Shown: positions 1 to 53,596 of the stretch, in pieces | How the letters are laid out: every line of letters starts with the position of its first letter | Position numbering within the stretch: position 1 is the first letter of the stretch | Source: Marsupella aquatica | Lineage: Eukaryota; Plantae; Marchantiophyta | Length of the DNA: 64,000 nt | Direction of reading: 5' to 3' | Assembly: GCA_973895155.1 (NCBI GenBank) | Contig: OZ316898.1 | Coordinates: 7,489,079-7,553,078, forward strand | Made by a program: the position numbers and the translations under genes | The notes under the pieces: generated by a model | Databases searched by the model: none | Seen by the model: the letters and a program-made list of their open reading frames with translations, nothing else | What the model was told of the DNA's origin: nothing

Positions 1-206
1 TAGACGTGGGTGATTTAGCCTTAATTTATGATTCTCGTTTTATGTTGTTCCCTGGAAAGATGCATACTCATTGGCTAGGACCATATCGTGTTACCAACAT
101 ATGGAGTAATGGATCTGTAGCGTTGACTACCCTTGATGGTCATCCTTTAGATACTCGAATAAATGGCTTCCGTCTTAAACGCTATCATTCACCTGCCCCA
201 GACTAG
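1..206 (+). CDS. C-terminal end of Ty3/gypsy pol (integrase C-terminal SH3-like/GPY-F region), truncated by the window start
   Basis: GDLALIYDSRFMLFPGK..HWLGPYRVT.IWSNGSV.L.TLDG.....INGFRLKRY is the typical non-chromovirus (Athila/Tat-like) integrase tail. It is followed by a PPT and an LTR. Confidence 0.9.
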   Translation, partial: DVGDLALIYDSRFMLFPGKMHTHWLGPYRVTNIWSNGSVALTTLDGHPLDTRINGFRLKRYHSPAPD

Positions 207-230
207 GCTTGTGAGGGCACTGCGCCGTTT

Positions 231-240
231 GAAGGGGGGA
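231..240 (+). promoter_or_regulatory. Polypurine tract of the gypsy element
   Basis: GAAGGGGGGA lies 3 nt upstream of the TG that starts the LTR. Confidence 0.85.
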
Positions 241-243
241 TTA

Positions 244-1672
244 TGTGGTATACCCGTTAGCGATAATCTTCTAAATAGGAGACATTTTTAATTTTTTTGG
301 ATGGAAGTTAGAAACTTTGAGGTTGTAAGCAGGATAATTAGCCATAAAGAGCATTAAGTGAGTAGGGAAGAGGAACGGCCTTTACCAAGAAATGAGCGCT
401 TCAACCTGGTGACCGGTAGCAGTAAGAGCGCGAGAAAGAATGAGTACTGGCGGAGGAGCTATGCAGGTCGAGGAAGAAAACCGAAGGCTTAGGACAATTG
501 TTGAAGCTGTAATGTGACACCACTGATTGAAGACAGGGCGCTGCGAGTAAAACAGGGATAATTTTTGGGCAGAAGTGTCAACTCATAAGAGGCGCCCTCT
601 GTTAGTAGTTCTTAAGACAGCACTATTTACTTACTCAGAGCACCTTTAGTAAGTTTACTAAGTAGATGTTCACTATTGTTTTACCGACAGCGCTACTAGT
701 TGATTTTCCACCATAGTAAGAAGTCTCTTTTCTAGTTAGCAGCACTCAGTACTCTACTACTTTTCATACTAGTTAAAACTACAGTATGTAGTTTAGTTTA
801 GATCAGCCTTTCTAGATCTCATTTTAGTTACTTTTCTTTCTAGATTCTAGGGAACACTTTCTCTGCCCTGACTTTGATGATACTTAAGCCCTTGTTTTTC
901 CTCATTTCGGGTGAGAAGGACTAAATTGGAAGCCTGGCTGTAGATGCAAGACTCCCGGTCGCTCCCTTTGTTTGTGATCTATTCAGTTGTAGAGATTGCA
1001 AATGAAGTAAATGTTTGTGTTGAGGAATTTGTTTTGAAAGATTCCTCGATAAACAAGTGTATGTTCAACTTCTGGAAATCAAGATGAATTTTATGATTGA
1101 TTGCTTACAGTGATGAGAATCATTCAAAATTCAAAGATGAATGTTTATAGGAAAGTGTCAAATCTATCATTGAGGGACAAGAGTACCATTATTATGCCCT
1201 GGACTTTTGCATTAGTGTTTTGTCTATGCCATACCTGATGCCTAGCCAAACCGTGTTGCCATCATTTTAATGCAAAGCTCGGCAATTATAATCTGAAATT
1301 TACCTCGAAAATGGTAGAGATTATATCTTTCCTGTGATCTTCTCATGACAAGAGCGAGATTTTGAAGGAGAAGAATATAGGAGAATGGGTTGAGTAAGAC
1401 CCTAATCTTTGTTGAAGGAAGGGCAATGCCATTCATATTCCTTGAATTCTTCCTTATGTAAATCCACCTTCAATCATGATTCCAGAATTAGTTGTTACTG
1501 GTTGATTTTATTCTGTGTTTGATCGGTTGAAGATAGAGAAATTTGAGAGGTCAGCTTATATCTCTTCATTAACACTATTTCCTTCAATAGCTTCCACTTT
1601 GTTCTTTACGGGATCGACTTTGGGTTATCTTTGGCTTTAAACCTTGTGTTTTATTTATAGACCTATACCACA
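244..1672 (+). mobile_element. 3' LTR (1429 bp) of a Ty3/gypsy retrotransposon
   Basis: Begins TGTGGTATA (244) and ends TATACCACA (1672), a perfect 9-bp terminal inverted repeat, directly after the PPT. The next 5 bp (TCCAC) are the expected target-site duplication. Confidence 0.85.
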
Positions 1673-2503
1673 TCCACGGCCTGGTGTCCCCCCACGGCCT
1701 GGGGTCCCTCCACGGCCTGATCTCCCCCCACGGCCTGGATTGCATTGTCCAAACCTCCCTAGAGTCCCTGCACATTTACAGGATCCATTTACAGTCACTT
1801 ACATTAGGTAAGTATGAATCATAAATCCCGCTGCCAAATATACAGTGGACTTCAGAACAATTCTGCAATGACCAAGTTACCTCTCCCTTGGCGCATAGAT
1901 GGTTCTAGACCACCTGTCCTATTGCTTTGTCTTGATGAATTAGGGGCGTTTCTCCCGCCTGTGAATGATTGCCTCCTATCTGAACGTGGATGGCCTTTGT
2001 TGTTTTCGTGATTGTCCCAATCAGAGTCTGCATACCAACAGGTACATGCCACACTCATGGACCTGTAAGATAAACTCTTTGCCCTAGCTACACATCAGAT
2101 AAGTGCATATTGAGCTAAATCTCTACTACCATCACAAAATCACTAGCACAAGGCACTTACTTGTCCAATCATCCTCCTCACCTTTCCATTGCCCTCTGTA
2201 CCCGTCTCTACCACGCTCTGGGTGTTCATATTCATCCCATCCATCTTCTGCTCCATCATAGTCATCATCATAATTATCAGGCGTCCCTTGCCAATAACTC
2301 TGGCTCCTTCTAGGGTATGGATTATGTGATTTCTCTCTAGCTGCCCACCTACCTGGGACTTGATGAGGGCCCTGTGCATCTTGCACATGTGCATTTTTCT
2401 GTGAGCCCCCTGCATCTGGGTCTCCATCCATATCCAATCTTTCCTCTTCACCCCACTCTCCAAGCCCCATGTCTGTCTCCATGTCATCACCCTCTTCCCC
2501 CAT
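1673..2503 (-). CDS. Putative TnpA-like (second CACTA gene) 5' exons: acidic Gly/Asp-rich start and 18-bp RPW repeats, truncated by the LTR
   Basis: ORF 2132..2503 (MGEEGDDMETD...) has an acceptor TGTGCAG 5 nt before its ATG and GTAAG donors downstream. The 18-bp repeat CCACGGCCTG..CCC at 1673-1740 encodes RPWGEI/RPWRDP/RPWGDT. Exon phases are not fully resolved. Confidence 0.45.
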
Positions 2504-2680
2504 AGCTTCTGCACAGCACCCACAACCAAACAGGGAGAATCAACACACTAAATTCAAAGTATCAATCAATTTCATGCATATCCAACTATCCTAAACATCA
2601 TTCCAGGCAGCAATTCCCGTTCTATGACTCTGTGCAGGTAGTCATCCTCAACCTCATACTTGCCAATCGCCAGCTGTTGC

Positions 2681-5600
2681 CTATTGCAAATCATCAACCT
2701 CATCATATTCCATTTGCCCAGGTTCATCATATGTCTCTCTCAATGTTAAGGGGATGTAGTCAGTCCCTGCCCGAGTTGGAAGTACAGTCTCATGACTAGG
2801 ATGCTCGAATGCAGCATGGTCATCCAAACTGAACTCTACTTTACTTCCATCCATCCGCCTGTTCCGTGCTTGGCTATGGCATACCACCCTCCAGCCATGT
2901 GACTCCTCCACATCTGCAAAGAAAGCCTGTTCAACTTGGCTAGGGAAAACAAAAGGCTCAGACCATTCTGGTACTCTGGACCTAAAATTGGCCAACAAGA
3001 ACCCATCATGATCACGCTTCATGGTGGACCTTGGTCTCTGCCACTCTGATTTCACCCATGATCCCTTCATCAATATCACTGGGACACTTGTGTTACCATA
3101 ATTCAACACCCAAATGTCGGTCAACTCCCCCACGTAACCCATCTTCATCCACCCCCTCTGTTCTTCAGAGGTTCTCTGCTCAAACACAGAAATCAAACCA
3201 CAATCATATGATACACAATGGTCACCCTGCTCATCCCTCACTCGATAATGATTTCCATAAGCTCTCATCCGTTTGTAGGTCAGAATAGACAATCGTGGTG
3301 GCACAGATAGAAGATACAAATCCTTCTCCATATCTGGGTGATGTCTACTATGCTCTCGAATTGTCACCCGAATCCACTGCTCGAACTGTGGGAAGGGATC
3401 CTGCTGCCCAGAGTGTGCAGCTTTTTGCATATCATATTCCCTGCAATATGAGGTACAGGCATAGTTAGGTCTAAACAACACATGACAACCTAAGATCACC
3501 CTTGGAACAGACAAGAAGCATCACAACAAAGGCAAGTCAATTCAATCACTCACCTCCACCATGGTTGCATAGGCTCTGTGTTTGCCAGCACATATGAATG
3601 AGCCTTGTCTCGAATCGCAATAGGCAGCTGAACAGCACGTCCCACACCTTCAACAACCTCGCCACTCACTCCATCATCTTCACCAGATTTCCAAACTCTT
3701 GTCATAGCTTCACCAGACCCAGCCATGTACTCTGTTAGGAATCCCAACGTCTCATCCTTAATGTACCCCAATGCCATGGAAGCCTCTGGCCTGTAGTATG
3801 TTCTCACATGACCTTTCAACAACTTCATGTATCGCTCCATAGGGTACATCCATCTGGTACTGACTGGCCCATACTGCCCTAGCTCTTCTACCACATGGAT
3901 TAGGAGATGAGTCATAACATCAAAGAAAGCAGGGGGAAGTATATCTCCAAGTCACAGAGGACATAAGCAGCATCCTGCTTCAACTGCTCCAATCCTTGGG
4001 GATCCCACACTTTCACACATATACGGCGAAATACATTGCACAGTCGAAGAATGACATTACAGACTGGTTTCTGCATGAGACCTCTGAGGCATAGGGGCAG
4101 AATGTGCTGCATCAACACATGGTAGTCATGTGTTTTCATACTGCCAAGTTTATTCTTTGTAATATGCTTCTTGAAGGCACCAGCATAGCCAGAGGGCACT
4201 TTCAGACAGCTCAATCTATACAAGAATGTCTTCCATTCATCCTGTGTGCACACATAGGGAGCTTGGAACTTGAGAAGTACATTGGGATTGCTTGCATGGG
4301 GCTTCAACCAAAGGTGAGGGCGAATCCCCTTCTGTTGCATATCAGCTCGAACTGCTCCTGTATCTTTCTCACCCGACAAGAACTTCAGCAAGCTCTCACA
4401 AATATTTTTCTCAATGTGCATGACGTCCACATTGTGTTTGCTGGGCTCGAATTCCTGCACTCCACAAAGCAAAGAATTCAACAACAGAAACACTAATTAA
4501 CCACATAGGAGGATTGTAACCAACATCAATCCACCATTGCTCCAATCTAAAATTGCAATCATACAGGGGCTGGAGGCTAAGTACATTACCCTCCAGTACT
4601 CCAACTCCAAGTCCATCAAGGTCTGTCTTTTCACACCGTGTTTCACCACTGGATCCTCAGGTTCTCGATCAGTGGCACTTCTCTTGTCCCAATCAGCCTT
4701 CCTGGCTGCCCACCTCAGGACTTGCTCTCTGGTGACCCTCTGTGGTGGGCCACGAAGCTTTGTTTTGTTGTTGAAGTGTGCAATTTGAGACCGTGTGTGC
4801 CTGTAAGGATGATCAACAGGCAGATACCTTCTATGCCCCTGAAATTTCATACTGTGCAGGGCATGTGACCACTCACTTGTCACATTTTTCCCACATGGTG
4901 TGCACCCCACATAGCCCTTTGTCACTCGTCCAGATATGATGCCATGGCCTGGGTAATCTGCTATATCCAGCAAACAAATTGCATGCAGTCTAAAGGGGCT
5001 GGGTCGAAGAAGCCCCTTCAGAACATCATGGGTTAACACCCCTTCTATCCACAAAGTCTTCCACTCTTCCACTGCTGGAGCCAACATGATATCTATGAAT
5101 TGCTCGGTCACAGAAGCTGGTCCAGGGATTAACAGCACCATCATGACAAAAAACCTCTTTGTAGTCATCCATGGGGGAAGGTTGTAATTTAGCAGCATAA
5201 CCGGCCAACATGAATAACGGTTGTTTTTGTCTCCAAATGGGTTTACTCCATCCAGTGATAGACCAAATCTAAAGTTCCGCTTCTCTGCAGCAAACTGTGG
5301 CCACCTCTCATCAACAAATTTCCAATGGTTGGAATCTCCAATGTGACGCTGCAGGCCATCACTGCTCTTGTTATCAGGAGTCCATGTCATCAGCTTGGAA
5401 ATGGCAGGGCATCTAAACAGACGTTGTAGTCTAGGAATGAGAGGAAAATGACGAAGAACCTTGGCAGGGTGTGTACATTTCCCTACATTCTTGTACCTGT
5501 GCTTACCACAATGAGGGCATGTCAATTTATCTGCATGCTCTTTGCGAAAGAGAACACACCCATCAGGGCATGCGTCAATAGACACATAGTTCAGCCCAAG

Positions 5601-6380
5601 GTTAGACATCAATTTCCTAGCCTCGTACATATTTTTTGGAATTGAATTACCATCTGGTAACACATTTCGGCGCAGGAAGGTCAACAACTCTGTCACAAAT
5701 ATATTGGGAACATTGTGATTGCCACAGATGTTCAACAACAACACGACAAAACCCAGCTTGGAGCAGTTCGACCCCTCGTAGATAGGAATGCAAGCTTCTT
5801 TGATGTGTTTTGGGCCCCCAAACACCCACTCCCTCTCTGCTGCACCTTCCCCAATGTCAAAGTCAGGTTCAGCTTGGCCGTCGCCAATGTGTGGCTGCGG
5901 TTCATTGTCCTCTTCTGATTCCACTGTGTCGTAAAAAGCATCAAGGTCTTCAAAAATCTCTTGAACCATTCTTGGGACATCCATCCCACCGTCCTCAGTG
6001 ACTGCCTCTCCATCTCCATCTTGGTCATCCACGTTCTCATGTTGGACCCCAGGACCATCCTCTGCACAGTCTATGTCCTGCTCTACGTAGTCTCTACGCC
6101 TAGCTGTATTAGAATCCACAAAGTCAGCTCTCCACTCTTCATCAGAGGAGTCTTCTTCTGCTGGTACATTCCAAACCCTCCACCGAGGGTGCCTTTCATG
6201 CCGCAGCAGGTGAAGGTGCACAGTGTTCAAACTCAACGACTTGAATCCTTGGCACTGTGTGCATGGGCATCTCATCCTCCTACTCCTACCTTGGGCGGCC
6301 CGGGCTTGTTCACGCATCCACAATTTAGAATCATGATGCCTAATCCTAAATGGGTTGTGAAGAGGCAACCTTGGAGCCAT
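2681..6380 (-). CDS. CACTA TnpD/TNP2 transposase (Transpos_assoc, Transposase_21, DUF4218, DUF4216); exons about 6380-4590, 4454-3554, 3440-2681; one 1-bp frameshift at about 3934
   Basis: Motifs CPCTQC, IDACPDGCVLFR, LRHFPLIPRLQRLF, GLSLDGVNPFG..NNRYSCWPV..NYNLPPW, DVMHIEKN, KTHDYHVLMQ, HVVEEL..YGPV..RWMYPMERYMK.LK, PFVFPSQVEQAFF. GT-AG introns at 4589-4455 and 3553-3441 join in frame. One extra G in the 3932-3936 run restores FPPAFFDVMTHL. Confidence 0.95.
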
Positions 6381-6706
6381 CACTATACACACGCACTTAG
6401 CACCCTGTCATTTTATTATGCAAGTGAAAAATACACTTCCTGTTAAGGATTTCACCCCCGACTGTACTTGCCAAAATACGTAACGTTCCAAAAAAACAAA
6501 AAAACAAAAAATATAGGTGCCTGAGTCATGTACCTATTCTCAAGTGAATGAGACAAAATTCCTAAATGTTTGAGGGTGTCAACTCCTCCGCTGTCCTCAC
6601 ATGTACTGCCTCTGCACGTACATCCATGACCATATCAGAGTCCAATCATGTATAGTCATAGACACAGGTGCCAGGTGCGAGACCGGTGTGAGATGTCCTC
6701 ATCTTA

Positions 6707-7240
6707 CTACCACATCAAATACGGATACCAATCCTGTTGTCGATGCCACTCAGCCTTGAGGTACTCAGGCATGTACATTAAGTCATCAAGGTCTAAACCC
6801 TGCTCATGCCATGGTGGTCTTCGATCCGTGCCTACAAGCAGTGGCAGCAGTGCCCTCCATGGTGCACATGTTGCTACCAAGTCCCTCCACTGGGTACTAA
6901 TTAGTCTATATTTGCAGATATCTTGTGCGCCAGACACCACAAGAACCCTCGACCAGACATGTGTAAGAACTATATCATCTACCAAATCAGGCAACAAGGA
7001 ACCACCTACAGCATCGTGCTTGTCTAACTCATCTGCTGAAAAGTAAATGTCCTCTTCCGACTGTGCATCCTCATTCACCACAGCATTCACAACACATCCA
7101 AGGTCTGCAGGCATTATCTCGGATGGAGCTACACTCTGTCTGGTTACCAATCCACACAAGTAAGCCCAAGCAGTAGCCATGCACGATGCAACCCGTAGGA
7201 GGACCCTACATAGGGCCTGACGGTCTGGAAGAGGCAGCAT
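6707..7240 (-). CDS. F-box-like protein (CACTA cargo ORF)
   Basis: SLLPDLVDDIVLTHVWSRV........ICKYRLISTQWRDLV matches the plant F-box pattern LLP.LPDDI....L.RV...LRLVS+.WR.LV. No substrate-binding repeats follow. First in-frame ATG is at 7240. Confidence 0.55.
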   Translation of the reverse strand: MLPLPDRQALCRVLLRVASCMATAWAYLCGLVTRQSVAPSEIMPADLGCVVNAVVNEDAQSEEDIYFSADELDKHDAVGGSLLPDLVDDIVLTHVWSRVLVVSGAQDICKYRLISTQWRDLVATCAPWRALLPLLVGTDRRPPWHEQGLDLDDLMYMPEYLKAEWHRQQDWYPYLMW

Positions 7241-7416
7241 ACCCACCAAAGTCTTTAGCCAAACAGAGCCCAGCAAGTAGATTCACAGTCATACCCCACG
7301 CAGCAGGAAACAACAATCACTTCAACTGCGACCAACCATGACAAGATGAGTTAGTTCAAGGATCACATTTATTACAAAATTGTGATTTATACAAAAATAT
7401 GAGGGACTCCTACTCC

Positions 7417-8265
7417 TCACTCTCTCCCACCTTTGCTAAGCATACATCTCCGCTGAATCTTGGAGGGCCAGGCCTCAAAAATATCAAAGTCCCAAGCATT
7501 CTGTCGCTTCCCTCTAGCTGCTGATTCCAGAAGCCAATCAGGGGAAAGCACCCAAAGATTGTTGTTCATGACAAAATCACGCATTGTTGTCTTAAAGAAT
7601 TTTCTGCATATTTTCATGTATGACAGACCTACAACATGAGTGGAGGTTTCTGTTAGACTCTCCTCCACTGTCCCACCTAGCTCAACAACTATAGACTTGT
7701 ACAATCTGCACTTAGTCTCCCCAATTCCTTCTTCTGCAAATACCACACTGAACCCCTTCATAATGGTATTTCTCTCCTTGCCATGCTCATTCAATATAGC
7801 ATCTGCACGCATAGGATGGTGTCCTATGTTGACAACAGGTCCATATTGGACAGAAGCAAAGTTGGGTTTCTCTGCCGCTGCTTCATAGGCTTCCTTTTCA
7901 GCCAAAGCCTCTGCAGTGGCCTCCTCACTCTCCCACAACTCATATTGCTCAGTACTCTGTACACACCTATGTTTAAGAGAATCGGTCAGCCAAGAGACTT
8001 CAACTACTTTTAGACCTTGGTTGGTAATGGCAGAATCAATGAAGGACCATGACCAGTTGTTCATCACATCCAGCCATGTCCCCGCAACAACATGTGTAGT
8101 CTGTGGAGTGATGTCCTTGACTTCAGTCCCATGGAACTCTGAGAATCGTTTTTGTACGATTGGCCAACTCACTTGGGTGAACCCATAGTGGCCAGGAATC
8201 AAAATGGCTTTGATTCCAGCCAACAGAGGTGGGTGGTCAACCTTTGTACGTTTCCTAGAGGCCAT
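7417..8265 (-). CDS. Tandem BRCT-domain protein (CACTA cargo ORF), intronless, with an NLS-like N-terminus
   Basis: Two repeats carry BRCT hallmarks: HGTEVKDITPQTTHVVAG...LKVVEVSWLTDSLK and ELGGTVEESLTETSTHVVG...LWVLSPDWLLESA. Starts MASRKRTK. Confidence 0.85.
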   Translation of the reverse strand: MASRKRTKVDHPPLLAGIKAILIPGHYGFTQVSWPIVQKRFSEFHGTEVKDITPQTTHVVAGTWLDVMNNWSWSFIDSAITNQGLKVVEVSWLTDSLKHRCVQSTEQYELWESEEATAEALAEKEAYEAAAEKPNFASVQYGPVVNIGHHPMRADAILNEHGKERNTIMKGFSVVFAEEGIGETKCRLYKSIVVELGGTVEESLTETSTHVVGLSYMKICRKFFKTTMRDFVMNNNLWVLSPDWLLESAARGKRQNAWDFDIFEAWPSKIQRRCMLSKGGRE

Positions 8266-8863
8266 GTACACACGGGCCACCTAATCACTGCAGACCGGAA
8301 GATAATGCGTTCACCTGATAATCGGAGGGCCCTTAAAATGCTGCGTTTATAACTTGGTCCAGTCCAGTCGTCTGGTGAGTCTCTGCTCCGATTCCAAACG
8401 GGAGAAATATTGGGACAAACGTACTAGACACCTGCAAGCATGCACGTCATAGTTTGAATATGTGCCTTGACAATATTGAAGGTGACAAGTGCAATTGTTT
8501 TGTGATGCCACATACAGATGTTGTAAATGGGCAGACATTCAATGAGAATAGAAAATGTTGGTACACTTTAAGGGAATTCTCGCAAATTAAATAGCCTTGT
8601 AACTTATATGCTCATAATGAGAAGTCCTGATTTAATTTAAGCAGTGTCATGTAAGTCGTGATCAAAATGATTGCAGAGTTAAAAAAGTTCCTAGAAGGCT
8701 TAAGGGGAGTTTTTGAAGGCATGTACCCAGGAACAAGTAATGAACTTAGGGTACTTGTTGCCTAAGCATCCTCTCCTACAGAGGTCCTTCTTCTCAAAAT
8801 TGGAATGTCTGCAATCTCCAAGGTATCCACATCAGGTGCACTATGCATGTACATTATTCAGGT

Positions 8864-9544
8864 TCAAAGCCAAGAAATGTGATCTCTCATGGGAGTGTGC
8901 AAAGTAGGATCTATGGCATGGCGATGACAATAGAAGATCCATCGATCAACACCATGTGCAGAGTGATGATAGATGTGTCTGTCACAAGCATAGCCTTCTG
9001 CTTGACGCTCCTTCAAACAATGAAAGTGCCACATGGTGGGACACCTAACACAGTGGACTATGTCCACCCAGAAATCTTCATCGTGCTGACCACATGCCTT
9101 GCACTTATGAAGTGGGCAAGCTGTGGCAAGATCGGGCAAACATGAAAAACAAAAGAACCTCACACAATATCTGTCAGGGCATTTCCTAACAAGTGGTGGA
9201 GCATCAATAGAGCCCTCATAAGACCCCAACTTCCCACACTGTGCACACTTAGCCTGCTTCTCCAAACAATCAGTGCACATCCAGCCTCCCTGGTGTGCTG
9301 ACGGGAGGCCCACCCCTGGACAGTTGTTTTCTGCAGCAAGGTCAGACTCCGGGTTGAGGTGGAAATGCCTCATGCAAGGGCCCTCACATATGGCTAAGCC
9401 ACCACCATCGTCACAAATGGCACAACAATGAGCTGCCTTCTGGAAAATCTGACTTGCGGAGAAGTTACTACCATCTGGCCCAACTACACCTGTGTTGCTC
9501 ACCTCTGTCCCCCGCTTCTTGGCTCGGATTTTAGGGCATGCCAT
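8864..9544 (-). CDS. EDM2-like composite PHD-finger protein (CACTA cargo ORF), intronless
   Basis: CAICDDGGGLAICEGPCMRHFH...WMCTDC; CAQCGKLGS...CPDRYC..FFC..C...CPLHKCKAC; CVRCP..WH..CL...IFYC.RH.ID..L.TP.RDHI. This is the Cys/His order and C-terminal signature I recall for the EDM2 PHD cluster. Confidence 0.85.
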   Translation of the reverse strand: MACPKIRAKKRGTEVSNTGVVGPDGSNFSASQIFQKAAHCCAICDDGGGLAICEGPCMRHFHLNPESDLAAENNCPGVGLPSAHQGGWMCTDCLEKQAKCAQCGKLGSYEGSIDAPPLVRKCPDRYCVRFFCFSCLPDLATACPLHKCKACGQHDEDFWVDIVHCVRCPTMWHFHCLKERQAEGYACDRHIYHHSAHGVDRWIFYCHRHAIDPTLHTPMRDHISWL

Positions 9545-10544
9545 GCCTACGCCTGAGACAGATAGTACAATTTAGTAGAGTGCACAGACAATACAATTTA
9601 GTGCAGTGTACAAAAAGTACAGTGTAGCATATAGACTAGAGTGGCAATTGCTACTGCAATGAAATGTTCACACACATGTGCAGAGTAGACATACTTTTTG
9701 GTTTGTTGAGCCCACACTAAAAACTGATCCCCTCGTACAATAGCTCCACCTACACCTCAATTTTGTGGCTATGATTCACCAAAGGAGATCTGCAACAAGA
9801 TTTAATGCATTTGAATCACATATAACAGTCGTGACATGTAAAACAGGCATTTTTTGAACAGGATTGGTATCAAGCAGTGTGATCAGGGTTGTAATTTATA
9901 CATCCTAAATAGGCTATGATAGTGAATGAGACAAATAAGTTAGGCATAAATCACTTTTTCCAGGTTATCACATGGCCCATTAATTCCAGTCTTTGAAAGG
10001 AGACTTTTAAGTGAGCTTGCTAGCCTCTTAAATTAGGATATTGTACTTAGTGCAGCCATAATAGGATAAGTTATGTACTGTTGACCGTAAACCCTGGACC
10101 CAAAATTGCTCATAATTCAAAATCTTAAGTAAATATCCTCTCTGTTCAAGTCAAAGTGTTAAGTTATAGGTCAATGGTCTCTGGTCTGTGCATGCGGTGT
10201 GACAAGTGGTCTTCTACAGCGTGTGATCCAAACATGTGTAGACACCAAAGTGACCGGTGGTGGGGTCTGGGAGGGCAGGACAAGTGACATCGCCAGGCAC
10301 ACTGCAGGATGGCGAGTGGTTCCAGATGATACATTGTGCTCTGTGAAAAAACTGACATCCAAGAGAACGATCATCCAACTCTAGGCCAGAAGCCCTACAG
10401 GCAGGACAGTCATACTGGCAACTGTGCACACACCCTTGGGCCCTAATTTGTGGCGGGTCATGTACGAGAGACAAAAATACCAAGGATGTTGGGAAGGGTG
10501 GAGAAGTAGGTACAGGGCGGCTGTAGTTATTCCTGGCAACAACT

Positions 10545-11520
10545 GGGTACTCAAAGTACCATGCAGACTGGGCTGGAAGGATCCCAAGTCTGACATACTC
10601 AAGGTGCAACATCTCTACCTTGCGTGCAAGCCGCACATGTTCAGCATTGCGGGTCCTCACCATAAGTGTTGCTTTTGTGGAGTGTCATGTGTTCACGTCC
10701 TCTGATAAGCACCTTCGATCAACAAGGTGAGCAGGAGCTGTACTTGCCTCACCAACAGCAACCAACCTTAAATTATCAGTTCCCACTCATTGTGTCATTC
10801 CATTGGTTCCAGCTAGGGGTCACAATGTAAACATAGCATGAAACACTCCTAATCAACTTGCTTACAAACTACAATACCCAGAAAGAGTGAAAGTCTCACC
10901 CTCCAGTGAGCAGCAGAGAGGTAGTTCACTGGATGTGTTGATGTGCAGTTAAACCTCCACTATTGCTTACTTCCGGTGTATGCTGCTCAGTCGGAGACAT
11001 ATTAGTAGCAGCAAATTGCAAATAATGGCCATAAGCAAACCGTGAGAGTACTCAAAGTACCATGCAGATTGGGCTGGAAGAATCCCCAGTCTGACATACT
11101 CAAGGCGCAACATCTCTGCCTTGAGTGCAAGCCACACATGTTCAGCGTTGCGGGTCCTCACCATAAATGTTGCTTTTGTTGTGATGTCCTCTGTTCACGT
11201 CCTTTGATGAGCAAGGCGAGCAGGAGGTTGACTTGCCTTGCCCACAGCAACCAACCTGCACTTATCAGCTCCCACTCACTAAATTGGTTCCAACTACAGG
11301 TCACAATATACACATAGCATGAAAGGTGCATAGTACATATTTGATGCTAAGTTCCTGAGACAAAGAGCATGTATATAAAACCATGTTCTCCATGGACATG
11401 TACATAAATCATATTTGGATCCTGTTTTTTCATCCAGAAAGATCGAAAGTCTCACCTTGCAGGTTGCAGCAAAGAGAAAACTCACTGGTTGTCGTGTTGT
11501 GCAAGTGAACCTCCACTGAG
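10545..11520 (-). repeat. Segmental duplication carrying two copies of a small ORF (MVRTRNAEHV..EYVRLGILPAQSAWYFEY)
   Basis: About 10545-10840 aligns with about 11047-11325, and about 10890-10965 with about 11445-11520. ORFs 10214..10663 and 10967..11164 share 35 of their first 39 aa. Confidence 0.8.
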
Positions 11521-13174
11521 GTGGCAAAAAGCAGACAAAGCTTCAGGAAGATGGGAAAGATGATCCTCGCCCATCATCCCCTATAAAATCTACACATAGG
11601 ACGGACGCCCGGGGACATTTATCATGAAAATTGAAGATCCATTCAACAACTCCATGACAGCCTATTCCGCATTGTGTCCGCCCCATGCAAGCGAGGGGTG
11701 TTCAGCCGAGCTTAGTCTAACCATGAATGATTGTTCTGGAAGCAGTTGCGACAATGTTTTGGTTTTTTTCTCCTATCCAACTCAATAGCTCACAAACATG
11801 GCATTGGACCCATTAACAAATTATACTTGCCATCATTCTCAACTGTATTACATGGCCCACACTGCTGACGTCCCTGACTCTTAAGGGAAACTCATCTCCT
11901 GGGCCAGCAACATCTCAGATTCTTCAAAAATGAGAAACTATGAAGACTTCTTGAACTCCTATCCTGTGACTGTAGCATGTATGATTTGCTGGGACTGCAG
12001 GCAGTTCTGGATCCTGTTGCGGTTTATATACAGCAGCAACCTGAGCTCCATGAATTTGTTTTTAATAGACATGCGTTTGACCACGGCTACAACTCCAAAA
12101 CAATCACCAAATCAAATCATAACAAAACCCACTCGAAAGCTGAACACTAGAACACTGGAACACACTCAAACAGGTTCTGCAAGGATGGCTCTCTGTCGGA
12201 TCGGCTAGAGAATCAGGCAGGCTTCCTATTACGGTCTGCTGAGAGCCTTACACTCTGGATTAGACTCTGAATCCAAACGCGAGTCTACGCTTTCCGTTGC
12301 TGGTCACAGCGACGGGCAATCAGGATGATGCCATGCCGAGTAGAAGAACAAGAAAGCATTCCATAAAAGGCACTGAGATGAACCGTATAGTAAAAGTGGT
12401 AGTACTTCCGGTAGCGCGACCGACTCGCTATGTGACAGTCCGGAAAAAAGCTGAAAGGCTGAACTTAGGAGATAGATTCCGTGCTCAATGTGACAGGTTT
12501 TTTGAAATGATCAAGCCAAGGTGCAAAGGAAAACTGATTGAAGGTGGCATGGGAAAGTTGTCAATGCAGGAGAAACTCTTGCCTTAGAGTAACCTTGTAA
12601 CCAGGTAACAATGCAGGAGAAACTCTTGCCTTAGAGTGCTCGACGCTCCTTCAGCTGGATAGGGGCAGCTCCAAGTACACGGTCTGGTCCAATCACCACC
12701 TGCTTTGTTACAAGAAGGTGGACTAAGCCACAGCTGACGTCAATCATGCTATAAAAAATGGACAGATGAGCCGTGCACAGTAAAAAATGGACAGATGAGC
12801 CGTGTCACGGAAGCATATAGTCATTCCTCAATATTAAACGAGACTATGAGAGGGCATATATAAGTTCACGACCAGGAAAGAGTCTCACCTTGCAGCACGG
12901 AGATTCTCAAAGCGCACCAAGATGAGTCCTTGTAGCAGGTGAATGTTGGGCGGTGTCATGTAAGGCGCAAATCAATAGCTCGCTACCTCCTGTCTCCCCG
13001 TCTGTCTCCCGTGCACTTCTACCTCCCCGTCCGACTTCCCGTCTGTCTCCCACGTACTTAAATTGAAGTTTTAACAAAAACTATCAACACCAAGTGCATC
13101 AAATGCCAACATATTCACATTGCAGAGCATAAAAGTAGTCACAGTTCATGAATCAGTTCCCTATCGAATCATGG

Positions 13175-13680
13175 GCACTACGCCGAGCACTGCGCAAGAG
13201 ACTGGGATAGACACTGCAAACATGGGGACTTTTGTTTGGCAAGAAATCTGGACATCAAACCTTCAGCAGCGGCAACGGGAAGCATTACATCAGACGAGTG
13301 GACATCAAATGAGCAGTCCAATTATAGGCAAACGGCGACTGACATAGAAGAGGGAAAAAATGTGCATTGACATAGCGGACATGCGCGCATTGACATAGCG
13401 GAGGGGAGCAAAACTACATAAGCCAAGTGACCTTTTTAAGGCCCACAATTTCAAGGGGAGGGACAAAGAGAGCAAGCACTCCAATCTATTCAATCCCTTT
13501 CGCAAGTAGCCGCCGAAATCTACTTCTTGGGGTCCAGCCCACGGATGTAGATCATGCAAGGTGGTCAATCACAGTAAGTGTAATCACTACGCCGAGCACT
13601 GCGCAAGAGATTGGGACAGAGACTGCAAACATGGGGACTCACAGGCAAGAAATCTGGACATCAAACCTTCAGCAGCGATC
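13175..13680. repeat. Direct repeat (~95 bp, two copies) inside the CACTA 5' region
   Basis: CACTACGCCGAGCACTGCGCAAGAGA...GGCAAGAAATCTGGACATCAAACCTTCAGCAGCG occurs at about 13175-13270 and about 13585-13677. Confidence 0.85.
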
Positions 13681-14769
13681 GATGGGCCTTAATTCACAGG
13701 TCGCCTAGCTCGGTCCCTTGTTGCAGCTCGCCCAGCTCCACAACACCATAGACAAGGAGTTCGCAGGTCCAGTTTCCACCACGCAGCGTTAGCAAAACAA
13801 AAATGCTTGATCTTCGCCCTCCGCCCTCCGCCCTTTGCCCGAACCCCAAAATATCACAAGCGCAGCTCCAACGTCCAACCGACAACCCTCCCCCGAGCTT
13901 TGTTAGACAAAAATCAGCACAACACAACTGAGCTCGACGGAAATAAGCTCAGCACCCACCGCAGCTGAACAAAGCTCACACAAGAGCTCATACGGGAGCT
14001 TGCTGTGGGAGTAAAAGAAAAATAGGAGGGCCGATGGCAGCCCACAACTCCCACACCCTGCTCCTTCACAACTTTGGCGAGCTCCTTTGCAACTCCAATG
14101 CAAACTACTATCCACAATTGTAAATGCACATCGATCAGCCAAACCTAAACCCTCCCACTGAGCTCAAACTCCCGCGCAGCACTCCCGCAGTAGCACTCCT
14201 GCAACAACACATTGCATAGCACTCCCGCAGCACATTGCACATCCTCCCGCAACACTTTGCACAGCGCTCCCGCAGCTCCTGGAGACCTGATTGAAGCCTT
14301 GATTGCACACTCTTCAGGCAAAACAGCAGCGCAACCTTGCTAAACCCCTTGACCCTCTCGCCCTAAACGCTGAGTGGCAGACACTAACCGCAACATTCAA
14401 CGTTGAGCCTCGATACTTTGTGAGAAAAGTAAAACACGACTGAAAGGCGCGAGGGTGAAAAGGGTGCAAAGAGCCGTTTGGCGCCAACCTTGCTATGACA
14501 TGGCAGCCCCTAGAGTGATCTCAGCCATCCGGATGAAAAGAGATTGCCTTGAGTGATCTCGACCATCAATATGCAGGTTTCATGTTAACCCCAGGCCCCC
14601 ATTCCCTCTACTTCAAGTGTCTAAATTAATTACACTCCAAGCCTTGTCTAGCCCCTAAAAAACTAGTGCTAAGTCATGACTACTCGGCCCTCTCAAAGTA
14701 TAGCCCAGCTGAGTAAACTTCCAATATGCGACTTTTTGATGGTGGGGATCGATGGACTCCATCCAATGG

Positions 14770-15260
14770 TCCCTAAACCCCCCATCCCCTTAACCCTAAA
14801 CCCCCCACCCTTGACATCTCAACCCTCCACCCTTGACATATAAACCCCCCCTAAACCCCCTTTAGTGAAAACTCAGCCACCCCCGCACCTTGACATATAA
14901 ACCCCCTAAATGTCTTGACAACTCGACTGTGGCCAGACTGTTTTTGCAATGCCACGGGCCGTTTTAGAGCGCCGCTTGCAAGCTCAGGATCAATGAAGCA
15001 TGTTGCCTCCAGCTCTCCAAATCCTCCCAAGGCAGCAAACAAGTTAGGGTCCACGGTCCCTGTTCGTTTACCCTAAATCGCTGCGTCACTATTTCAATTG
15101 AGTGTTCTCTGACCCTAAACCCCCTTTACTGACCCCCACCCCCTTGAGACCTAACCGGCCCACCCTTGGCATATAAACCCCCCTAAACCCCTTTAGTGGT
15201 GAACCCCCACACCCTTCGCATGTAACTGGCCCACCCTTGAGCCCTAAACCCCCCCAAACC
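14770..15260. repeat. CACTA subterminal repeat arrays (candidate TnpA binding sites)
   Basis: CCCTAAACCC at 14771, 14794, 14849, 15113, 15181 and 15242, interspersed with CCACCCTTG(A/G)CAT motifs in two blocks. Confidence 0.7.
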
Positions 15261-15495
15261 CACTATGGAGTATATTCAAAATTAGGGAATTTCAACATTT
15301 ACGCCGTTTGTCCGTGTTCAAGTTAGCGGGATGTTGGTAAAGAGGTCGTCAAATGAATTGTGCCCCCCCCCATATGCCCATTATCAAATGAAAGCCCACA
15401 ACTAAACCCTACAACCCATCATGTGCTAGAGTGTTCATACATTCACAAAGAAGGGTACTTTTCATAGTCTTATCCAAAACCAAAAAGCACTCACA

Positions 15496-15508
15496 GTCTT
15501 TTGTAGTG
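15496..15508 (-). mobile_element. Putative CACTA terminal inverted repeat (5' end of the element)
   Basis: The minus strand reads CACTACAAAAGAC, about 250 bp outside the subterminal repeats. The predicted 3-bp TSD is TTC (15509-15511). Confidence 0.65.
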
Positions 15509-17179
15509 TTCATGTGAACCGTGGCAATGGTTTTGAGTCATTTAAGGTTGCCAAAAAGGACTTAGTGGCCTTAGTCCTATAAGGTTTGGTCTAAATTGCC
15601 CCAGTTTCTACTAGTGACATCCTAACCATAGTTCAACCCAAGACTGAGTTAACCTCTACATATATTTACTTTTTTTAACTTGATGGCCTTACACATTTGA
15701 CCAAAGGTAAGTACCCTTTCCTAGAGCCTAACTAAAGTGGTATGGGTGCAAGAAAGGTCAGCCCCTAAATCTGGTATTCATTCCCCTATGCCGACTTTGG
15801 TTTGCAAGCTATCGGGACCCCCTCATGGCCTCGGCTAAAAGTATATTTGAGTGATTCTTTTTCTGGGTTTCCACCTTCACCAAGGGGTGCCTTACCTTCC
15901 CCTAACTCAGCACAAAAACATTTGGGCCCCAACGGATACCCCTAGCCGAAGTTATGCCCATTCTCCCAAGGCCTAGTTTTGGTGTAAAGCGGTGACCCGA
16001 TTACACTTACCTTACACGCCCCTTATGGAGATTCCAAGTGTCACCAGGGGAGACTCTCGTGCTTATGAAGGGAATTATATTTACTAAGGGAGAGAGAGAG
16101 TGGCTCGGTTCACAAGAGGATTGTCCAGCAGCATGTCAATCCTCCATAGCTCTAATTCTCCATCAGCCAGAATAGCTACTTCTCCAGCAGCCATAACTTG
16201 CAGCTATTTGTAGTATTGCACTAAGAACATAAATCAGCACTTAATGTCCAAAACTCGGTATTCGATCCCATGGAAGAACAAGAAAGGAATGATTTTCTAT
16301 CATTTAACACTTATGAATGATTAAGGTAACAAAAACATAGGTTTGAGCCTTTTACTATGATTGCCCAGCAAGGCATAGATTTGAATGTTTGCTTAACATT
16401 GTAAATGCAATTAATAAAATGGAAACAAATAACAAAACACAATAAAATCTTGAGGTATGATGAGGGAGTCTGAAAAACACCAAGGTAACTTCTCATCAAT
16501 ACTTCATTTGATGTGATTTGGGTGGTATATCCGTAAGAACATTTCTGGAATGGTTTACTGTACTAGGATGATTACTAAAATGCCGTCAACACGTCTCAAC
16601 TTTTCCTTCCAAAGGTACTCAGAAGAAACTAGTAATCAATCACTTCGATATCCAGTCGGTACTCTGAGTCACGAATAATAAACACCATCATGATCAAATT
16701 GAAGTCACAGGTAATTGGTGAGTAACAATCTTTGCATCCGTGCACAAGCAATATCACGCCAAAAACTATGCATCAAGAACTCAAGAAGATGGGTTATCAC
16801 CACTTAAGGAATCTATTCCCTCATACTTCTGAGATTCAACTTCATACAAGTAATTTTACTTCAATGATCTAAACTCTCAATCATTCAGACCAAGGAAGGG
16901 AGAAGAATTCCTTTGTATTTGCAAGCTCCATACCATACGAAAACACACGGAAGCTTTGCAAAGGTGATTATAGTACTGCAGCACATGCCACAGGCACTAC
17001 TTTATTTCTTCACACTTGAAAATGACACAAATTCTACTTCATATAGGCTAGCAGGAACCCAAGGAGACTGAGATACTGAAAGGATATGCCCTTTCATATC
17101 TAAAGGGTCTTGAATAAACTTAATGACGGTCATCCTTGAAAAGTGAATGGACACTGCTGAAAGTGTCGAAAATGCAGGG

Positions 17180-17763: not shown

Positions 17764-20700
17764 GGCGAAGTCGCGGCTATGCAAAAAACAGCAAAACTAA
17801 ATTAATTTTAACTTTCAAACCACATGTCGGTTTGAGATGAAACTTGCAGGGATGATTCTACTACGCAACTACTACCTCCTGAAAAAATATGAGACTTTTC
17901 TGACCATGATAGCTATTTAACTAAAATAGCAGAGATCGGCTGATTGTGATAATTGTATACAGAGCTCATTCTTGTTGAAAAAGTGTTTTGGAGGCCGGTT
18001 CTTGAATCTTCTAGTCTGCATTGCTTCTCCAATGATGTCCAGTCTTCTTTCTTGGTAGCATGTAAAGAGCAAGGATTTATATTGGCGATCCTTGTCCAAT
18101 AGAGGCAATAGCCTCCGATGAAGCATAACATTAGGTAAAGTGTTTGGTTGATCTAAATTGCTACAAAAGGTAATTGGATTGTACCTTGAGTTAGAAAAAG
18201 TTTAAAATTTATAAAATTTCCATCATTTCTAACTAATGTATAGCATTACACTATTCAATTCATTAGCAGCGACAGCCCACATCCAGCCATAGCTCACAGC
18301 TCACCTAGTCAATTCTGCAGCTAGCCCACCTCTTCAATTTCGTAGCTAGCAGCACAACAGCACATTCTAAGCATAGTAGCAGATTCAAAGCATAGCAGCA
18401 GCAGCCATAACTTGATTCCTTCTCAGTAACTAGCTCTATTCCAATCACTCAACCAAGCAGGTCTCTCTTCTCAATTTTGTAGCTGCCCACCTCTGCAATT
18501 TTGTAGCTAGTAGCAATCCTATTTTGCAGCCATAGCTCTTCAATTCATAGCAGCAGCCATAGCTCGATTCAATAACTAGCCCTCTTTCTCTCTTGCAGCT
18601 GGTCTTTGTTGATCCGCTACTACATTCAATCAATTCTTGTGTAGTAGTCCATCTGATCAGCCGCCAGCCCTTCAATTTTGTAGCCCACCATAGCTCACAG
18701 CCAGCCAGCCATCTCTTGATCAGTAGTAGCCCATTTTCTCCATAGCACGCAACTTGATTCCAATCATGATCATCAAGGCGGCCAGCCAATTCTGATCAGC
18801 AGCATGCAGCCAGGTCAATTCAAGTGGCCCTTCTTTCAATTCAGTTGCCCTTGTGCTCAATTGGCACTTCAAGCAACATGCAGCACCTTTGGATAGCCTC
18901 CTTGTGCTTGACTTCCTCACTGGCCTCATGCTTGAGTCGTAGCTTACGCATCGTCGTTCCCCAACACTTAGAAAAAGGTCATTTTTTCTGGAAAAACCTG
19001 CATTTTTAGGCTGTTTTTGACTGCCATGAGTCCAAAATGACTTCTGAGTAGATACACATATTCTCTGGACATAGGCCTATGTCCTGGTTTACTACTATCT
19101 AGACAAAACCTTATCACCAATTTTCTAAAATTAGTTAAAGTGGGTTAATTATTATGTTTTCCAAAATTCTTCTCAACTTTGAGATGCTCCCAAAAAGTAA
19201 CCAAGGATAATCAAGTTCTACCACAAGTTCCCAAGGATAGAGTGGACCATATTTAACCCACTTCCAAACTTGGAACTCCTAAATTTACTCATCAGCTATT
19301 TTCCTGGGACCCGTTATTTTGTTAATTTAAGTCACACCGAAACACAAGGAAACCCTAGGTTGAGACCCCACTTGACATCTAACTTTTTAGAGGTGCTCTA
19401 GGGACCTCCTAGCATCTAGGGGAAAAATCTGAACCAAACTAAGACTTCAAGTGTCGAGTTGTTTCTCCGGCTCGGAATAGTCGCCTATTCTAAATAAGGA
19501 CGAAACATTGTATGCTCCATCATAAAGACTTTTCTTATCCCTTGTCACTTGCTGACAACTCAGTAACCTTCCATTCCACTGTCTTTCCTATTCTACCTAC
19601 TTAAGTTCCTAAAACCTAGTTACTCCGATAGCACTTAACACATCTTTCTTACTATTCCTTGTTCAAAAAGCAAAAACAATGACAAGTTTCTTACATAAAC
19701 CTATATCAAGCCATTCCACAATCCCGGGCTACATTGAGTAGCAAATTGAGTTCAAAAGGCGGGAGGAGGAAATTAATTGCCAATGGGAGGCAGCACAAAA
19801 TCTCACTTTCCTCGAAGAAAGCTCCAACGCATTCAACTAGAATATGGCTACTCCACCGTAATTGACTACCATCCGGCCTATCATCCTGGTCACGCGGATA
19901 CCAACCAATCAGGCCCAGGTTCACACAAAAATAAAAAAAATAGACTACAATAATCAGAAAGAGTCAACTCTACACCTGGTTGTCCAGATCAAAATGCAGC
20001 ATACATACTTCTCGAATCATTCAGATTTGGCCTTGCCATTTTGTTGACAATAAAGGTTCTACGTCAAGTTTTATTTAACTATTGTGTCACAAAATTCAGG
20101 TTGTATAATGAAATATAGTACATATACTTTTGGAACCATTCACATTTGGCAATGGTATACTATATTGTTGTAAGTAAAGGTTTGAATTAGAAGTATTTCG
20201 GGAAATTATTCATGAAAAAGAGGAATTATGAATGTAATCTCATGAAATTCAGGATGGCTGAGTTCTTGCCAGCTGAGGAAGAAAATGACACAAGTTGATA
20301 TCTGAACAAGGCTTTCAATGCCTCACGCAAAACCCTATAAACTGGCAACTTGAACAACTACAAAATTGAGAAGAGAAGCTCTTGGTTGGCTGAGTGAGGA
20401 GAGCTATGGTTGCTGATTGGAATAGAGCTGGCTATTGAGAAGGAATTGAGATGGCTGCTGTTGCAAAATTGAATCATGCATAGAGCTATGCTGCTGGCTA
20501 GTGAATAGGCTGTTGTTGATCATAATAGACAGCTGCAAAATTGAGGAGAGGAGAGTTGGCTGTCTTGATACTGCTTGAGAAGAAGTAGAGCTCAAGCTGA
20601 GCTATGGTTGTTGTGCTTTGAAGCTACTATGATGGGCTACAGTGTTGATTGGGCTACAAAATTGAAGGTTGGCTAACTGATTGCAAGGCCACTTTGAATT

Positions 20701-31350: not shown

Positions 31351-31947
31351 TGGACTACCGTAGTGGAACAAGGAAAGGCCAAAATAAATGCCTACCAAAC
31401 CTACGTGATTACGAGAGGACTCGCCAGGCAGACTACCGTCTACAAATTAATGTGAAAGGAACGGCTGTTATCGAGGGACAGACTCCATGCGAATTTCGAA
31501 ATTTATACATGCGCTCAATTTACTCTTCACCCCTTGACGTTTGGGGTCGATGCCGATTTATGCTACTGAGACGGATAGAACCAACCTTTCTGATGCGGGT
31601 ATAGTTTTGCTCGATTGCTCGATTGCTCGATTGTGGGAGTTTCTGTTTGTATTCCGTAGCATTCTGCGAAGTGACAGGAATATGCGAGTGTTGGGTAGCG
31701 AGGCTTTCGGATCAGGCTGATCTTTTGGAGAGTGCAAGAAGTAGAGTATTCCATCACTGGGCGACTAAACGGAGTGTTGAGAATCAGTAGGTCGGATAGA
31801 TCGAGGTGAAGAAGGGAGGAGCCAACGGAGCCTGGGGTGGGGGGTGTGGGTTGGAACTTCTTTCCTTTGGACCAGGATTAATGGGAGTTGGAGAGGCACC
31901 AGTGCGATAAAGACGGAGTGAATTAGGAAAATCAATCTACTGAAGGG

Positions 31948-53541: not shown

Positions 53542-53596
<55 letters not shown>

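What the first reader, a model, noticed from the sequence alone, without database searches (positions are those of the whole stretch)
2503..12888. Each ORF in the CACTA has its own upstream 3' splice site: possible shared-leader, alternative-terminal-exon cassette
Seen on the minus strand. PHD: CTAAA..TCTGTCTCAG, AG at 9554-9553, 8 nt before the ATG. BRCT: AG at 8289-8288 or 8282-8281, ATG at 8265. F-box: AATAAA 7373-7368, CTAAC 7354-7350, CGCAG with AG at 7327-7326. TnpD: AATAAA 6417-6412, CTAAG 6400-6396, TAG 2 nt before ATG 6380. TnpA-like: TGTGCAG 5 nt before ATG 2503. Upstream there are three copies of a donor-like G|GTGAGACT (GT at 12888, 11455, 10899). Known: maize En/Spm makes TnpA and TnpD by alternative splicing from one promoter. 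Inference: one promoter may serve five or more ORFs through splice and poly(A) choice. The transposase would then need read-through of proximal poly(A) sites, which is the step host EDM2 controls. That gives a possible self-regulating switch.
Basis: partly seen in the sequence, partly recalled or inferred. Interest (0 to 1): 0.78.

Follow-up and report, generated by a model that had tools for sequence, protein, structure and literature searches.

The report
Six-gene transposon with likely shared leader
A high-copy jumping gene, likely from a leafy liverwort, lines up six reading frames on one strand, most with a splice-site-like signal in front, so it likely makes their messages by splicing one long transcript in different ways, as maize Spm does for two genes; no RNA was available to test this.

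Summary
All named motifs sit at the stated coordinates, in a CACTA-type element, likely of a leafy liverwort. Scored with a model from 17 host introns, acceptor-like sites before the five start codons beat spacer shuffles jointly (p 0.002-0.004); TnpD's is weak.

Corrections:
- The PHD acceptor at 9554-9553 is private to this copy. Five of five read sets have another base; a TAG 2 nt before the ATG remains.
- BRCT's best acceptor is at 8432.
- A sixth ORF lies upstream.
- The three donors are duplicated modules, each with a local acceptor.
- AATAAA alone is not enriched (p 0.14).

For linked transcription: the F-box acceptor lies 91 nt after the BRCT stop, less than any host intron measured. 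Against: strong local donors, TATAAA in three spacers, and 5'UTR introns near ATGs are common in moss. No RNA run was listed, so no junction was seen.

Best reading: a multi-ORF spliced unit extending the Spm plan (0.5). The EDM2-like self-switch is speculative (about 0.08). The scan noted this gene cassette before on other pieces of this genome.

The parts
15605..15616 (-). CACTA-starting end motif, inferred 5' terminus; the other end is not in the window
   Evidence: single occurrence of the 12-mer, no reverse copy in 64 kb
14774..15262 (-). subterminal repeats rich in TTTAGGG and TGGGCC
   Evidence: (families D9, D20)
12700..12960 (-). leader module 1: exon-like stretch, donor GT 12888 (score 7.3), local acceptor 12701-12700 (6.9); low contig depth in this region
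11256..11515 (-). leader module 2: ATG-free 60-nt exon-like stretch, donor GT 11455 (7.3), local acceptor 11257-11256 (6.5)
11048..11179 (-). duplicated start of ORF0, 93% like 10547-10678, then breaks off
   Evidence: (D11)
10767..10959 (-). leader module 3: ATG-free 60-nt exon-like stretch, donor GT 10899 (5.3), weak local acceptor 10768-10767 (0.9)
   Evidence: joint removing 10794-11283 in 4 of 5 runs
10214..10663 (-).
   Evidence: no Pfam hit; no Atlas hit
9694..9791 (-). candidate ATG-free non-coding exon 9789-9695 (acceptor 6.6, donor 9694 score 9.0, rank 5 of 932)
9547..9576 (-). PHD acceptor region: CTAAA at 9576; AG 9554-9553 private to this copy; TAG with AG 9548-9547, 2 nt before the ATG
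8864..9544 (-). stand-alone NSD/EDM2-type PHD ORF, 226 aa, no intron
8281..8433 (-).
7417..8265 (-). BRCT ORF, 282 aa, two BRCT stretches
   Evidence: PF00533, E 2e-14
7326..7391 (-). TATAAA 7391, AATAAA 7373, CTAAC 7354, AG 7327-7326 (7.8, rank 13 of 987), all within 91 nt of the BRCT stop
6707..7240 (-). F-box-like ORF, 177 aa from ATG 7240; label weak
   Evidence: E 0.074, under cut-off; F-box cluster, score 0.90
6383..6533 (-). local donor 6533 (9.1, rank 4 of 932), AATAAA 6417, AG 6406-6405 (4.0), CTAAG 6400, AG 6384-6383 (1.0)
2681..6380 (-). TnpD-type transposase; inferred introns 4589-4455 and 3553-3441; one-base frameshift near 3931 in this copy
   Evidence: (PF02992 E 3e-59, PF13963, DUF4218, DUF4216)
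2509..2659 (-). local donor 2659 (5.3), 22 nt after the TnpD stop, and acceptor 2510-2509 (6.6), 5 nt before ATG 2503
1673..2503 (-). acidic, low-complexity spliced ORF in the TnpA position; label positional only; broken off near 1672 by a different repeat
   Evidence: no Pfam hit; loose end at 1673 in X1

Best explanation
The element packs six same-strand reading frames head to tail and likely transcribes most of them from an upstream promoter as one precursor, from which a short non-coding leader would be spliced to alternative acceptors in front of each frame. Shown: order, strand, spacer lengths (176-669 nt), motifs, and their retention in family contigs for F-box and TnpD. Inferred: the GTGAGACT module is the 5'UTR exon of ORF0 and may also jump to later acceptors, as may ATG-free mini-exons at 9789-9695 and 8431-8315. 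Inferred: the AATAAA sites after BRCT and F-box lie inside what would be introns, so ending the RNA there competes with splicing onward (intronic polyadenylation). Inferred: the TnpD RNA would run on through donor 2659 into the TnpA-position ORF, like the two-ORF tnpD RNA of maize Spm. Whether the PHD protein affects this choice is untested.
For: Acceptor enrichment Fisher p 0.002-0.004; rough likelihood 261:1 over none, about 8:1 over a moss-like 40% rate. The F-box acceptor (rank 13 of 987, CTAAC 25 nt upstream) is 91 nt after the BRCT stop, while 17 of 17 host introns are 110-461 nt, so its donor and promoter would lie in or before BRCT. The TnpA-position donor is 22 nt after the TnpD stop. 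With family letters, the path from acceptor to start is ATG-free for all five ORFs. An upstream ATG lies 6-13 nt before the acceptor in four of them, and in the fifth only with the X4 letter at 2519. This copy's extra ATG at 7292 is private (5 of 5 runs). The donor 9-mer is the longest identical run among three diverged modules (39 of 122 columns identical, p 0.0015, biased because the motif defined the modules). One diverged X4 contig stays alignable from the PHD ORF to 9575, the branch-like motif, then runs on unlike (record 11; one contig, a hint). Precedent: Spm is one alternatively spliced unit and tnpD carries two ORFs in tandem (PMC1636069, passages).
Against: No junction seen: the laid contigs span the inferred TnpD introns, and none of the 15+15 listed joints (78+8 hidden) has intron ends. 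The TnpD acceptor is weak (p 0.33). Local donors at 9694 and 6533 outscore the leader donors (chance of a donor of 9.0 or more in such a window is 0.097 each). TATAAA occurs once each in the PHD, BRCT and F-box spacers (3 observed, 0.63 expected, p 0.024, post hoc). In moss 40% of genes have multi-exon 5'UTRs and about half of such introns lie within 65 nt of the ATG (PMC3729371, passages). Four Arabidopsis En/Spm families use separate tandem genes (PMC13547354, section 6) with their own start sites (bioRxiv 10.64898/2026.08.24.746577, passages). 7 of 17 host acceptors also have ATG in their last 15 nt (read), so the upstream-ATG pattern is partly host composition. The matrix rests on 17 introns from two genes.
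Confidence: 0.5

Rival explanations
1. Each ORF is a compact separate gene with its own promoter. The acceptors end ordinary local 5'UTR introns (9694-9547, 8726-8432, 6533-6405, 2659-2509) or are unused.
For: Local donors scoring 9.0, 7.1, 9.1 and 5.3 give introns of 148, 295, 129 and 151 nt, within the host range 110-461. TATAAA sits 356, 86 and 151 nt before three ATGs, 3 of only 4 in the element's minus strand. 5'UTR introns near the ATG are common (PMC1482700; PMC3729371). Split-gene En/Spm families exist.
Against: F-box and TnpA-position promoters would have to lie inside the preceding coding sequence if their acceptors are used. The would-be TnpD first exon 6706-6534 holds 7 ATGs in 173 nt. 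TATAAA is also one mismatch from AATAAA and may be a poly(A) signal. The stricter TATAWAW pattern is not enriched (p 0.16).
Confidence: 0.3
2. One precursor is spliced only locally, removing each spacer intron, to give multi-ORF RNAs that end at different poly(A) sites and are translated by leaky scanning or re-initiation.
For: Every acceptor has a donor scoring 5.3 or more within 60-320 nt, including 7430 inside the last BRCT codons. Spm tnpD RNA carries two ORFs.
Against: A donor of 5.3 or more occurs in 71% of random windows. Translation of the fourth to sixth ORF behind long ORFs is inefficient in plants (recalled, not from a call).
Confidence: 0.12
3. The motifs are chance matches in T-rich spacers, and the upstream ORFs are expressed unspliced.
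For: One named acceptor is a private mutation. No single ORF reaches p under 0.02. AATAAA is not enriched. Half of all ATGs have a YAG within 25 nt.
Against: Joint p 0.002-0.004 after keeping each spacer's composition; p 0.0003-0.02 against other ATGs over three window sizes, two sequence versions and three nulls.
Confidence: 0.08

Closest known systems
Maize En/Spm and Arabidopsis EN/SPM3, EN/SPM7 (PMC1636069 passages; PMC2613891 passages; PMC13547354 section 6)
   Same: CACTA element with a Tnp2-domain transposase followed by a second ORF; one unit alternatively spliced; tnpD RNA carries two ORFs in tandem.
   Different: There two proteins matter and tnpD is described as holding the tnpA exons plus intron-1 ORF sequence. 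Here four extra intronless ORFs lie before the transposase, with AATAAA between some of them, and splicing is only predicted.
Arabidopsis EN/SPM2, 5, 6, 9 (CAGE passages in bioRxiv 10.64898/2026.08.24.746577)
   Same: Non-overlapping head-to-tail ORFs in a CACTA element.
   Different: Shown there to be separate genes with their own start sites; this is the rival model here, with two genes rather than six.
Adenovirus major late transcription unit (PMC3283702 passages)
   Same: Works-like analogy only: one promoter, common multi-exon leader, alternative 3' splice sites and poly(A) sites, regulation by a product of the unit (L4-33K).
   Different: A virus with proven RNAs; no homology; here nothing is shown at RNA level.
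Plavaka (EnSpm/CACTA superfamily) of red algae (bioRxiv 10.1101/2025.02.11.637652, section 8)
   Same: Giant elements with a three-gene accessory cassette, including predicted chromatin-related genes, beside the transposase.
   Different: Different cargo (SET/DNA methylase, ParB/2OG oxygenase); the section read says nothing on a shared leader.
EDM2 and the ASI1-AIPP1-EDM2 complex (PMC7472560; PMC7529245; PMC10241880; passages)
   Same: The TE protein aligns with the PHD region of proteins that carry DNMT1-RFD plus NSD-type PHDs; the complex promotes read-through of intronic poly(A) sites in heterochromatin.
   Different: The TE protein is 226 aa, PHD region only, 31-35% identical, in its own long-branched clade. 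It lacks the RFD and, by its length, the methyltransferase-like and other EDM2 domains.

Membership tests
CACTA / En-Spm | Tnp2 (Transposase_21) transposase with DUF4218 and DUF4216 | tested here: met
   PF02992 E 2.8e-59, DUF4218 E 3.2e-22, DUF4216 E 1.5e-5 (under its curated cut-off)
CACTA / En-Spm | terminal inverted repeats starting CACTA at both ends | tested here: inconclusive
   one CACTA-starting 12-mer at 15616, no partner in the window; the copy is broken off near 1672
CACTA / En-Spm | 3-bp target-site duplication | not testable with these tools
   second end outside the window; no genome held
CACTA / En-Spm | subterminal repeats | tested here: met
   families D9 and D20 at 14774-15262 (one end only)
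CACTA / En-Spm | TnpA-like second protein | tested here: inconclusive
   ORF from 2503 has no Pfam hit (first exon only) and is truncated; label rests on position
Spm-type single alternatively spliced unit | one start site and a shared first exon joined to alternative acceptors | not testable with these tools
   no RNA holder listed; laid contigs behave as DNA
Spm-type single alternatively spliced unit | acceptor-like site before each ORF | tested here: inconclusive
   joint p 0.002-0.004; TnpD p 0.33; ORF0 acceptor 0.9 in module 3, 6.5 in module 2
Alternative-terminal-exon cassette | poly(A) signal after each ORF | tested here: inconclusive
   AATAAA in 2 of 5 spacers (p 0.14), one-mismatch variants in two more, none after TnpD. 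One host 3' region has AATAAA 520 nt after the stop, the other none in about 600 nt
EDM2 | NSD-type PHD cassette | tested here: met
   81 of 150 top hits match a profile of the N-terminus of six RFD-positive hits
EDM2 | RFD, methyltransferase-like and other domains in the same protein | tested here: not met
   226-aa ORF with PHD matches only; relatives of 217-245 aa
EDM2 | binds H3K9me2 and AIPP1 and promotes distal poly(A) use | not testable with these tools
   needs binding assays and 3'-end sequencing

The most novel reading that the evidence does not exclude
A plant DNA transposon runs an adenovirus-like late unit: one promoter, a multi-exon leader, six alternative acceptors and intronic poly(A) sites. 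Its own miniature EDM2-type reader, made from a promoter-proximal ORF, licenses read-through to the transposase, giving a self-timed switch that turns a silencing mark into permission to jump.
Probability: 0.08. Interest if true: 0.85.

Novelty: new variant of a known kind. Interest (0 to 1): 0.45.

Why it matters
If the shared-leader reading holds, it shows how a cut-and-paste transposon can add many accessory genes without adding promoters, extending the two-product Spm plan to six. It would put transposase output under control of splice and poly(A) choice. The family is abundant and little diverged in several read sets, so ordinary RT-PCR or long reads could settle it. If the genes are separate, the splice finding is ordinary and only the cargo, already noted by this scan, is of interest.

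Tried and rejected
- No genome is held for the window, so copies could not be aligned directly.
- No RNA holder listed; this says nothing on expression.
- Searches for related loci found none: metagenomes with the PHD alignment (475 pattern matches, 0 confirmed) and with TnpD (50, 0); genome contigs (50, 0); viral contigs (18, 0).
- The DNA around the four close PHD relatives could not be fetched. Cluster look-up gave no accessions, so acceptor conservation at 40-81% protein identity is untested.
- Rfam: 0 matches in 1600-16000. The bacterial promoter scan is irrelevant here. No second copy of the element in the window.
- I considered that the leader modules are coding exons fused to ORF0. In this copy all three frames hit stops before the ORF0 ATG, so this is not supported.
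- I first took the one-base difference at 10682 for an ORF0 frameshift. It lies upstream of the ATG and does not bring the ATG at 10688 into frame; rejected.
- A donor overlapping the F-box stop (6707) and one at 7420 scored poorly (-0.1, 1.6); dropped.
- Lower contig depth left of 11,500 is not a copy number and was not used as proof that the 12888 module is rare.
- Literature searches: CACTA+PHD finger+BRCT+transposon+bryophyte, 4 of 5 terms, 0 papers; DNA transposon+accessory genes+common leader exon+alternative splice acceptor+single promoter, 3 of 5 terms, 1 unrelated paper; liverwort/CACTA/EDM2 (15 of 100 listed) and transposon/EDM2-like/PHD/accessory gene (10 of 257 listed) showed nothing on this element; one search did not show which EDM2 domain binds AIPP1; (listing only) gave no liverwort poly(A) consensus.
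- No supplements were read; those of PMC13547354 (Suppl. Fig. 4) and the bioRxiv CAGE figure bear on the comparison.
- The PHD tree is the quick tree. It used 63 rows: the window protein, 7 short relatives, the first 30 of 79 RFD-positive and the first 25 of 50 other usable hits.
Full report
Setting. The minus strand from 15616 to about 1672 holds a CACTA-type element. It has a CACTA-starting end at 15616 with no partner in the window, subterminal repeats, about 5 kb without long ORFs, then six co-directional ORFs. These are an unnamed 149-aa Cys/His-rich ORF0 (10663-10214), an NSD/EDM2-type PHD protein, a two-BRCT protein, a weak F-box-like protein, a Tnp2 transposase and an acidic ORF in the TnpA position. 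Host genes in the window best match Calypogeia fissa proteins (82% and 91%, one hit each at strict thresholds), so the host is likely a leafy liverwort. No genome is held. Five contig sets from three studies hold 38-70% of the sampled words; none is on record as RNA, and their contigs span the inferred TnpD introns. This copy is likely dead: it has a frameshift near 3931 that the main X1 contig lacks, and another repeat replaces the end near 1672. Earlier notes of this scan describe the same gene cassette on other pieces of this genome. A word search for the splice architecture found no note with all words, only analogous ideas in other elements.

Checking the observation. All motifs are at the stated places. 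Simple proximity means little: 197 of 377 other ATGs have a YAG within 25 nt. I mapped 17 introns of two host genes with the two homologous proteins (110-461 nt, 16 CAG, 1 TAG) and built weight matrices; leave-one-out acceptor scores ran from 0.2 to 10.4, median 7.6. The two inferred TnpD introns rank 1 and 9 of 987 AGs, a useful control. BRCT has a better site at 8432 (rank 5) with 166 ATG-free bases to the start. Against shuffles of each spacer the five best sites give Fisher p 0.0024, or 0.0041 with family letters; TnpD alone is at chance. AATAAA is not enriched (2 against 0.66, p 0.14).

Family evidence. The next AG, a TAG 2 nt before the ATG, scores 6.2 with family letters and is not listed as changed, though the tables are cut. 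In favour: the two main X1 contigs over the F-box and TnpD junctions differ at only two known places each. One changes CTAAG at its purine position and one removes an upstream ATG in front of F-box, while both AATAAA, CTAAC and the AGs stay. These copies are about 99.5% identical to the window, so retention shows the motifs are not private but is weak evidence of selection. One diverged contig aligns from the PHD ORF up to the branch-like motif at 9575 and then runs on unlike; another joins 6320 to 6631 without aligning across the TnpD spacer. Each is a single contig.

The donors. The three GTGAGACT sites belong to one duplicated module: a 60-70 nt ATG-free stretch, the donor, and an acceptor 133-200 nt later. 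Modules 2 and 3 each lead into the start of ORF0. A joint deleting 10794-11283 appears in 4 of 5 runs, so copies differ in module number. The 9-mer is the longest conserved run among the modules (p 0.0015, biased), which suggests a real donor, but its simplest role is the 5'UTR intron of ORF0. Donors of similar or higher score lie locally before PHD (9694, 9.0), BRCT (8726, 7.1) and TnpD (6533, 9.1); random windows reach 9.0 in 9.7% and 7.1 in 32.5% of cases.

How it most likely works. A rough likelihood calculation favours acceptors at all five ORFs by 261:1 over none and about 8:1 over a 40% rate, the rate of multi-exon 5'UTRs in moss (PMC3729371, passages). Geometry adds to this. The F-box acceptor is 91 nt after the BRCT stop, less than any of 17 host introns, and the last ORF's local donor is 22 nt after the TnpD stop. 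The would-be private first exon of TnpD holds 7 ATGs, whereas the module exons and two mini-exon candidates hold none. I therefore favour one precursor with alternative acceptors, with AATAAA at 7373 and 6417 acting as intronic poly(A) sites that compete with onward splicing (0.5). All RNA steps are inferred. The main rival is separate compact genes (0.3): TATAAA occurs once in each of three spacers (p 0.024, post hoc; stricter pattern p 0.16), UTR introns near the ATG are normal (PMC1482700, passages), and four Arabidopsis En/Spm families have split genes with their own start sites. Locally spliced multi-ORF RNAs (0.12) and chance (0.08) remain.

The EDM2 switch. A profile of the TE protein and four relatives (40-81% identical) finds 439 proteins at E up to 0.001. 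Of 20 top hits scanned, 7 carry DNMT1-RFD plus NSD-type PHDs, an architecture I take as EDM2-like (name recalled; no hit was named). 81 of the top 150 match a profile of that N-terminus. The stand-alone proteins form their own long-branched group (SH-aLRT 100, quick tree, midpoint root) at 31-35% identity to the long ones. EDM2 has further domains (PMC7529245, passages) and promotes distal poly(A) use with AIPP1 and ASI1 (PMC7472560, passages). A reader alone could recruit that complex, compete with it, or guide the transposase. An unchecked note reports a small PHD gene in a P-like element of the same genome, which suggests a general role. I put the self-regulating switch at about 0.08.

Comparison and novelty. 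The plan extends maize Spm, one unit whose tnpD RNA carries two ORFs (PMC1636069, passages), and works like the adenovirus major late unit (PMC3283702, passages) without being related to it. Multi-gene accessory cassettes are known in Plavaka elements (bioRxiv 10.1101/2025.02.11.637652, section 8). Searches listed no paper on this element or on a six-ORF shared-leader DNA transposon; the library lacks most subscription journals and no supplements were read. Verdict: observation partly confirmed, interpretation partly supported, new variant of a known kind, interest 0.45.

Noticed in passing
window 15715-16052 and 20969-21315: Long inverted repeats (about 340 nt in three pieces, 82-88% complementary) with inner inverted arms at 18415-18485 and 20355-20446: a probable second DNA element next to the CACTA end.
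   Followed up: no
window 39114-42875, minus strand: GC-rich 750-aa ORF and neighbours that look like the reverse transcriptase and endonuclease of a non-LTR retroelement (label from recall, not scanned).
   Followed up: no
window 14366-15250, minus strand: Ten TTTAGGG copies interleaved with TGGGCC in the subterminal region. Telo-box plus site II is a known plant promoter pairing (recalled), so this is a candidate for the element's promoter.
   Followed up: partly
window 1-1672: A different repeat replaces the rest of the TnpA-position ORF; it begins TG on the minus strand like an LTR end (inferred). With the frameshift near 3931 this copy is likely dead.
   Followed up: partly
window 8680-10877: Contig depth is about twice that of the transposase region in X1 and X4, with a 43-nt insertion at 9986: a sister family seems to share ORF0 and PHD but diverge over BRCT to TnpD.
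   Followed up: partly
window 9806-9790 and 8636: ATTAAA lies just before a CAG in the ORF0-PHD and PHD-BRCT spacers, like AATAAA before the CAG at 6405; seen post hoc and not tested.
   Followed up: no
window 48088-52489 and 59913-63154 (minus), 56221-57850 (plus): Host genes: 3-beta-HSD/reticulon-type gene with 11 introns and dihydroorotase-type gene, 82% and 91% like Calypogeia fissa proteins over the query exon; an ankyrin/chromo gene resembling cpSRP43 (recalled label).
   Followed up: partly
window 30848-31353, 53151-53988, 55562-55874: Tandem arrays: 19-nt units, 105-250-nt units and about 110-nt units.
   Followed up: no
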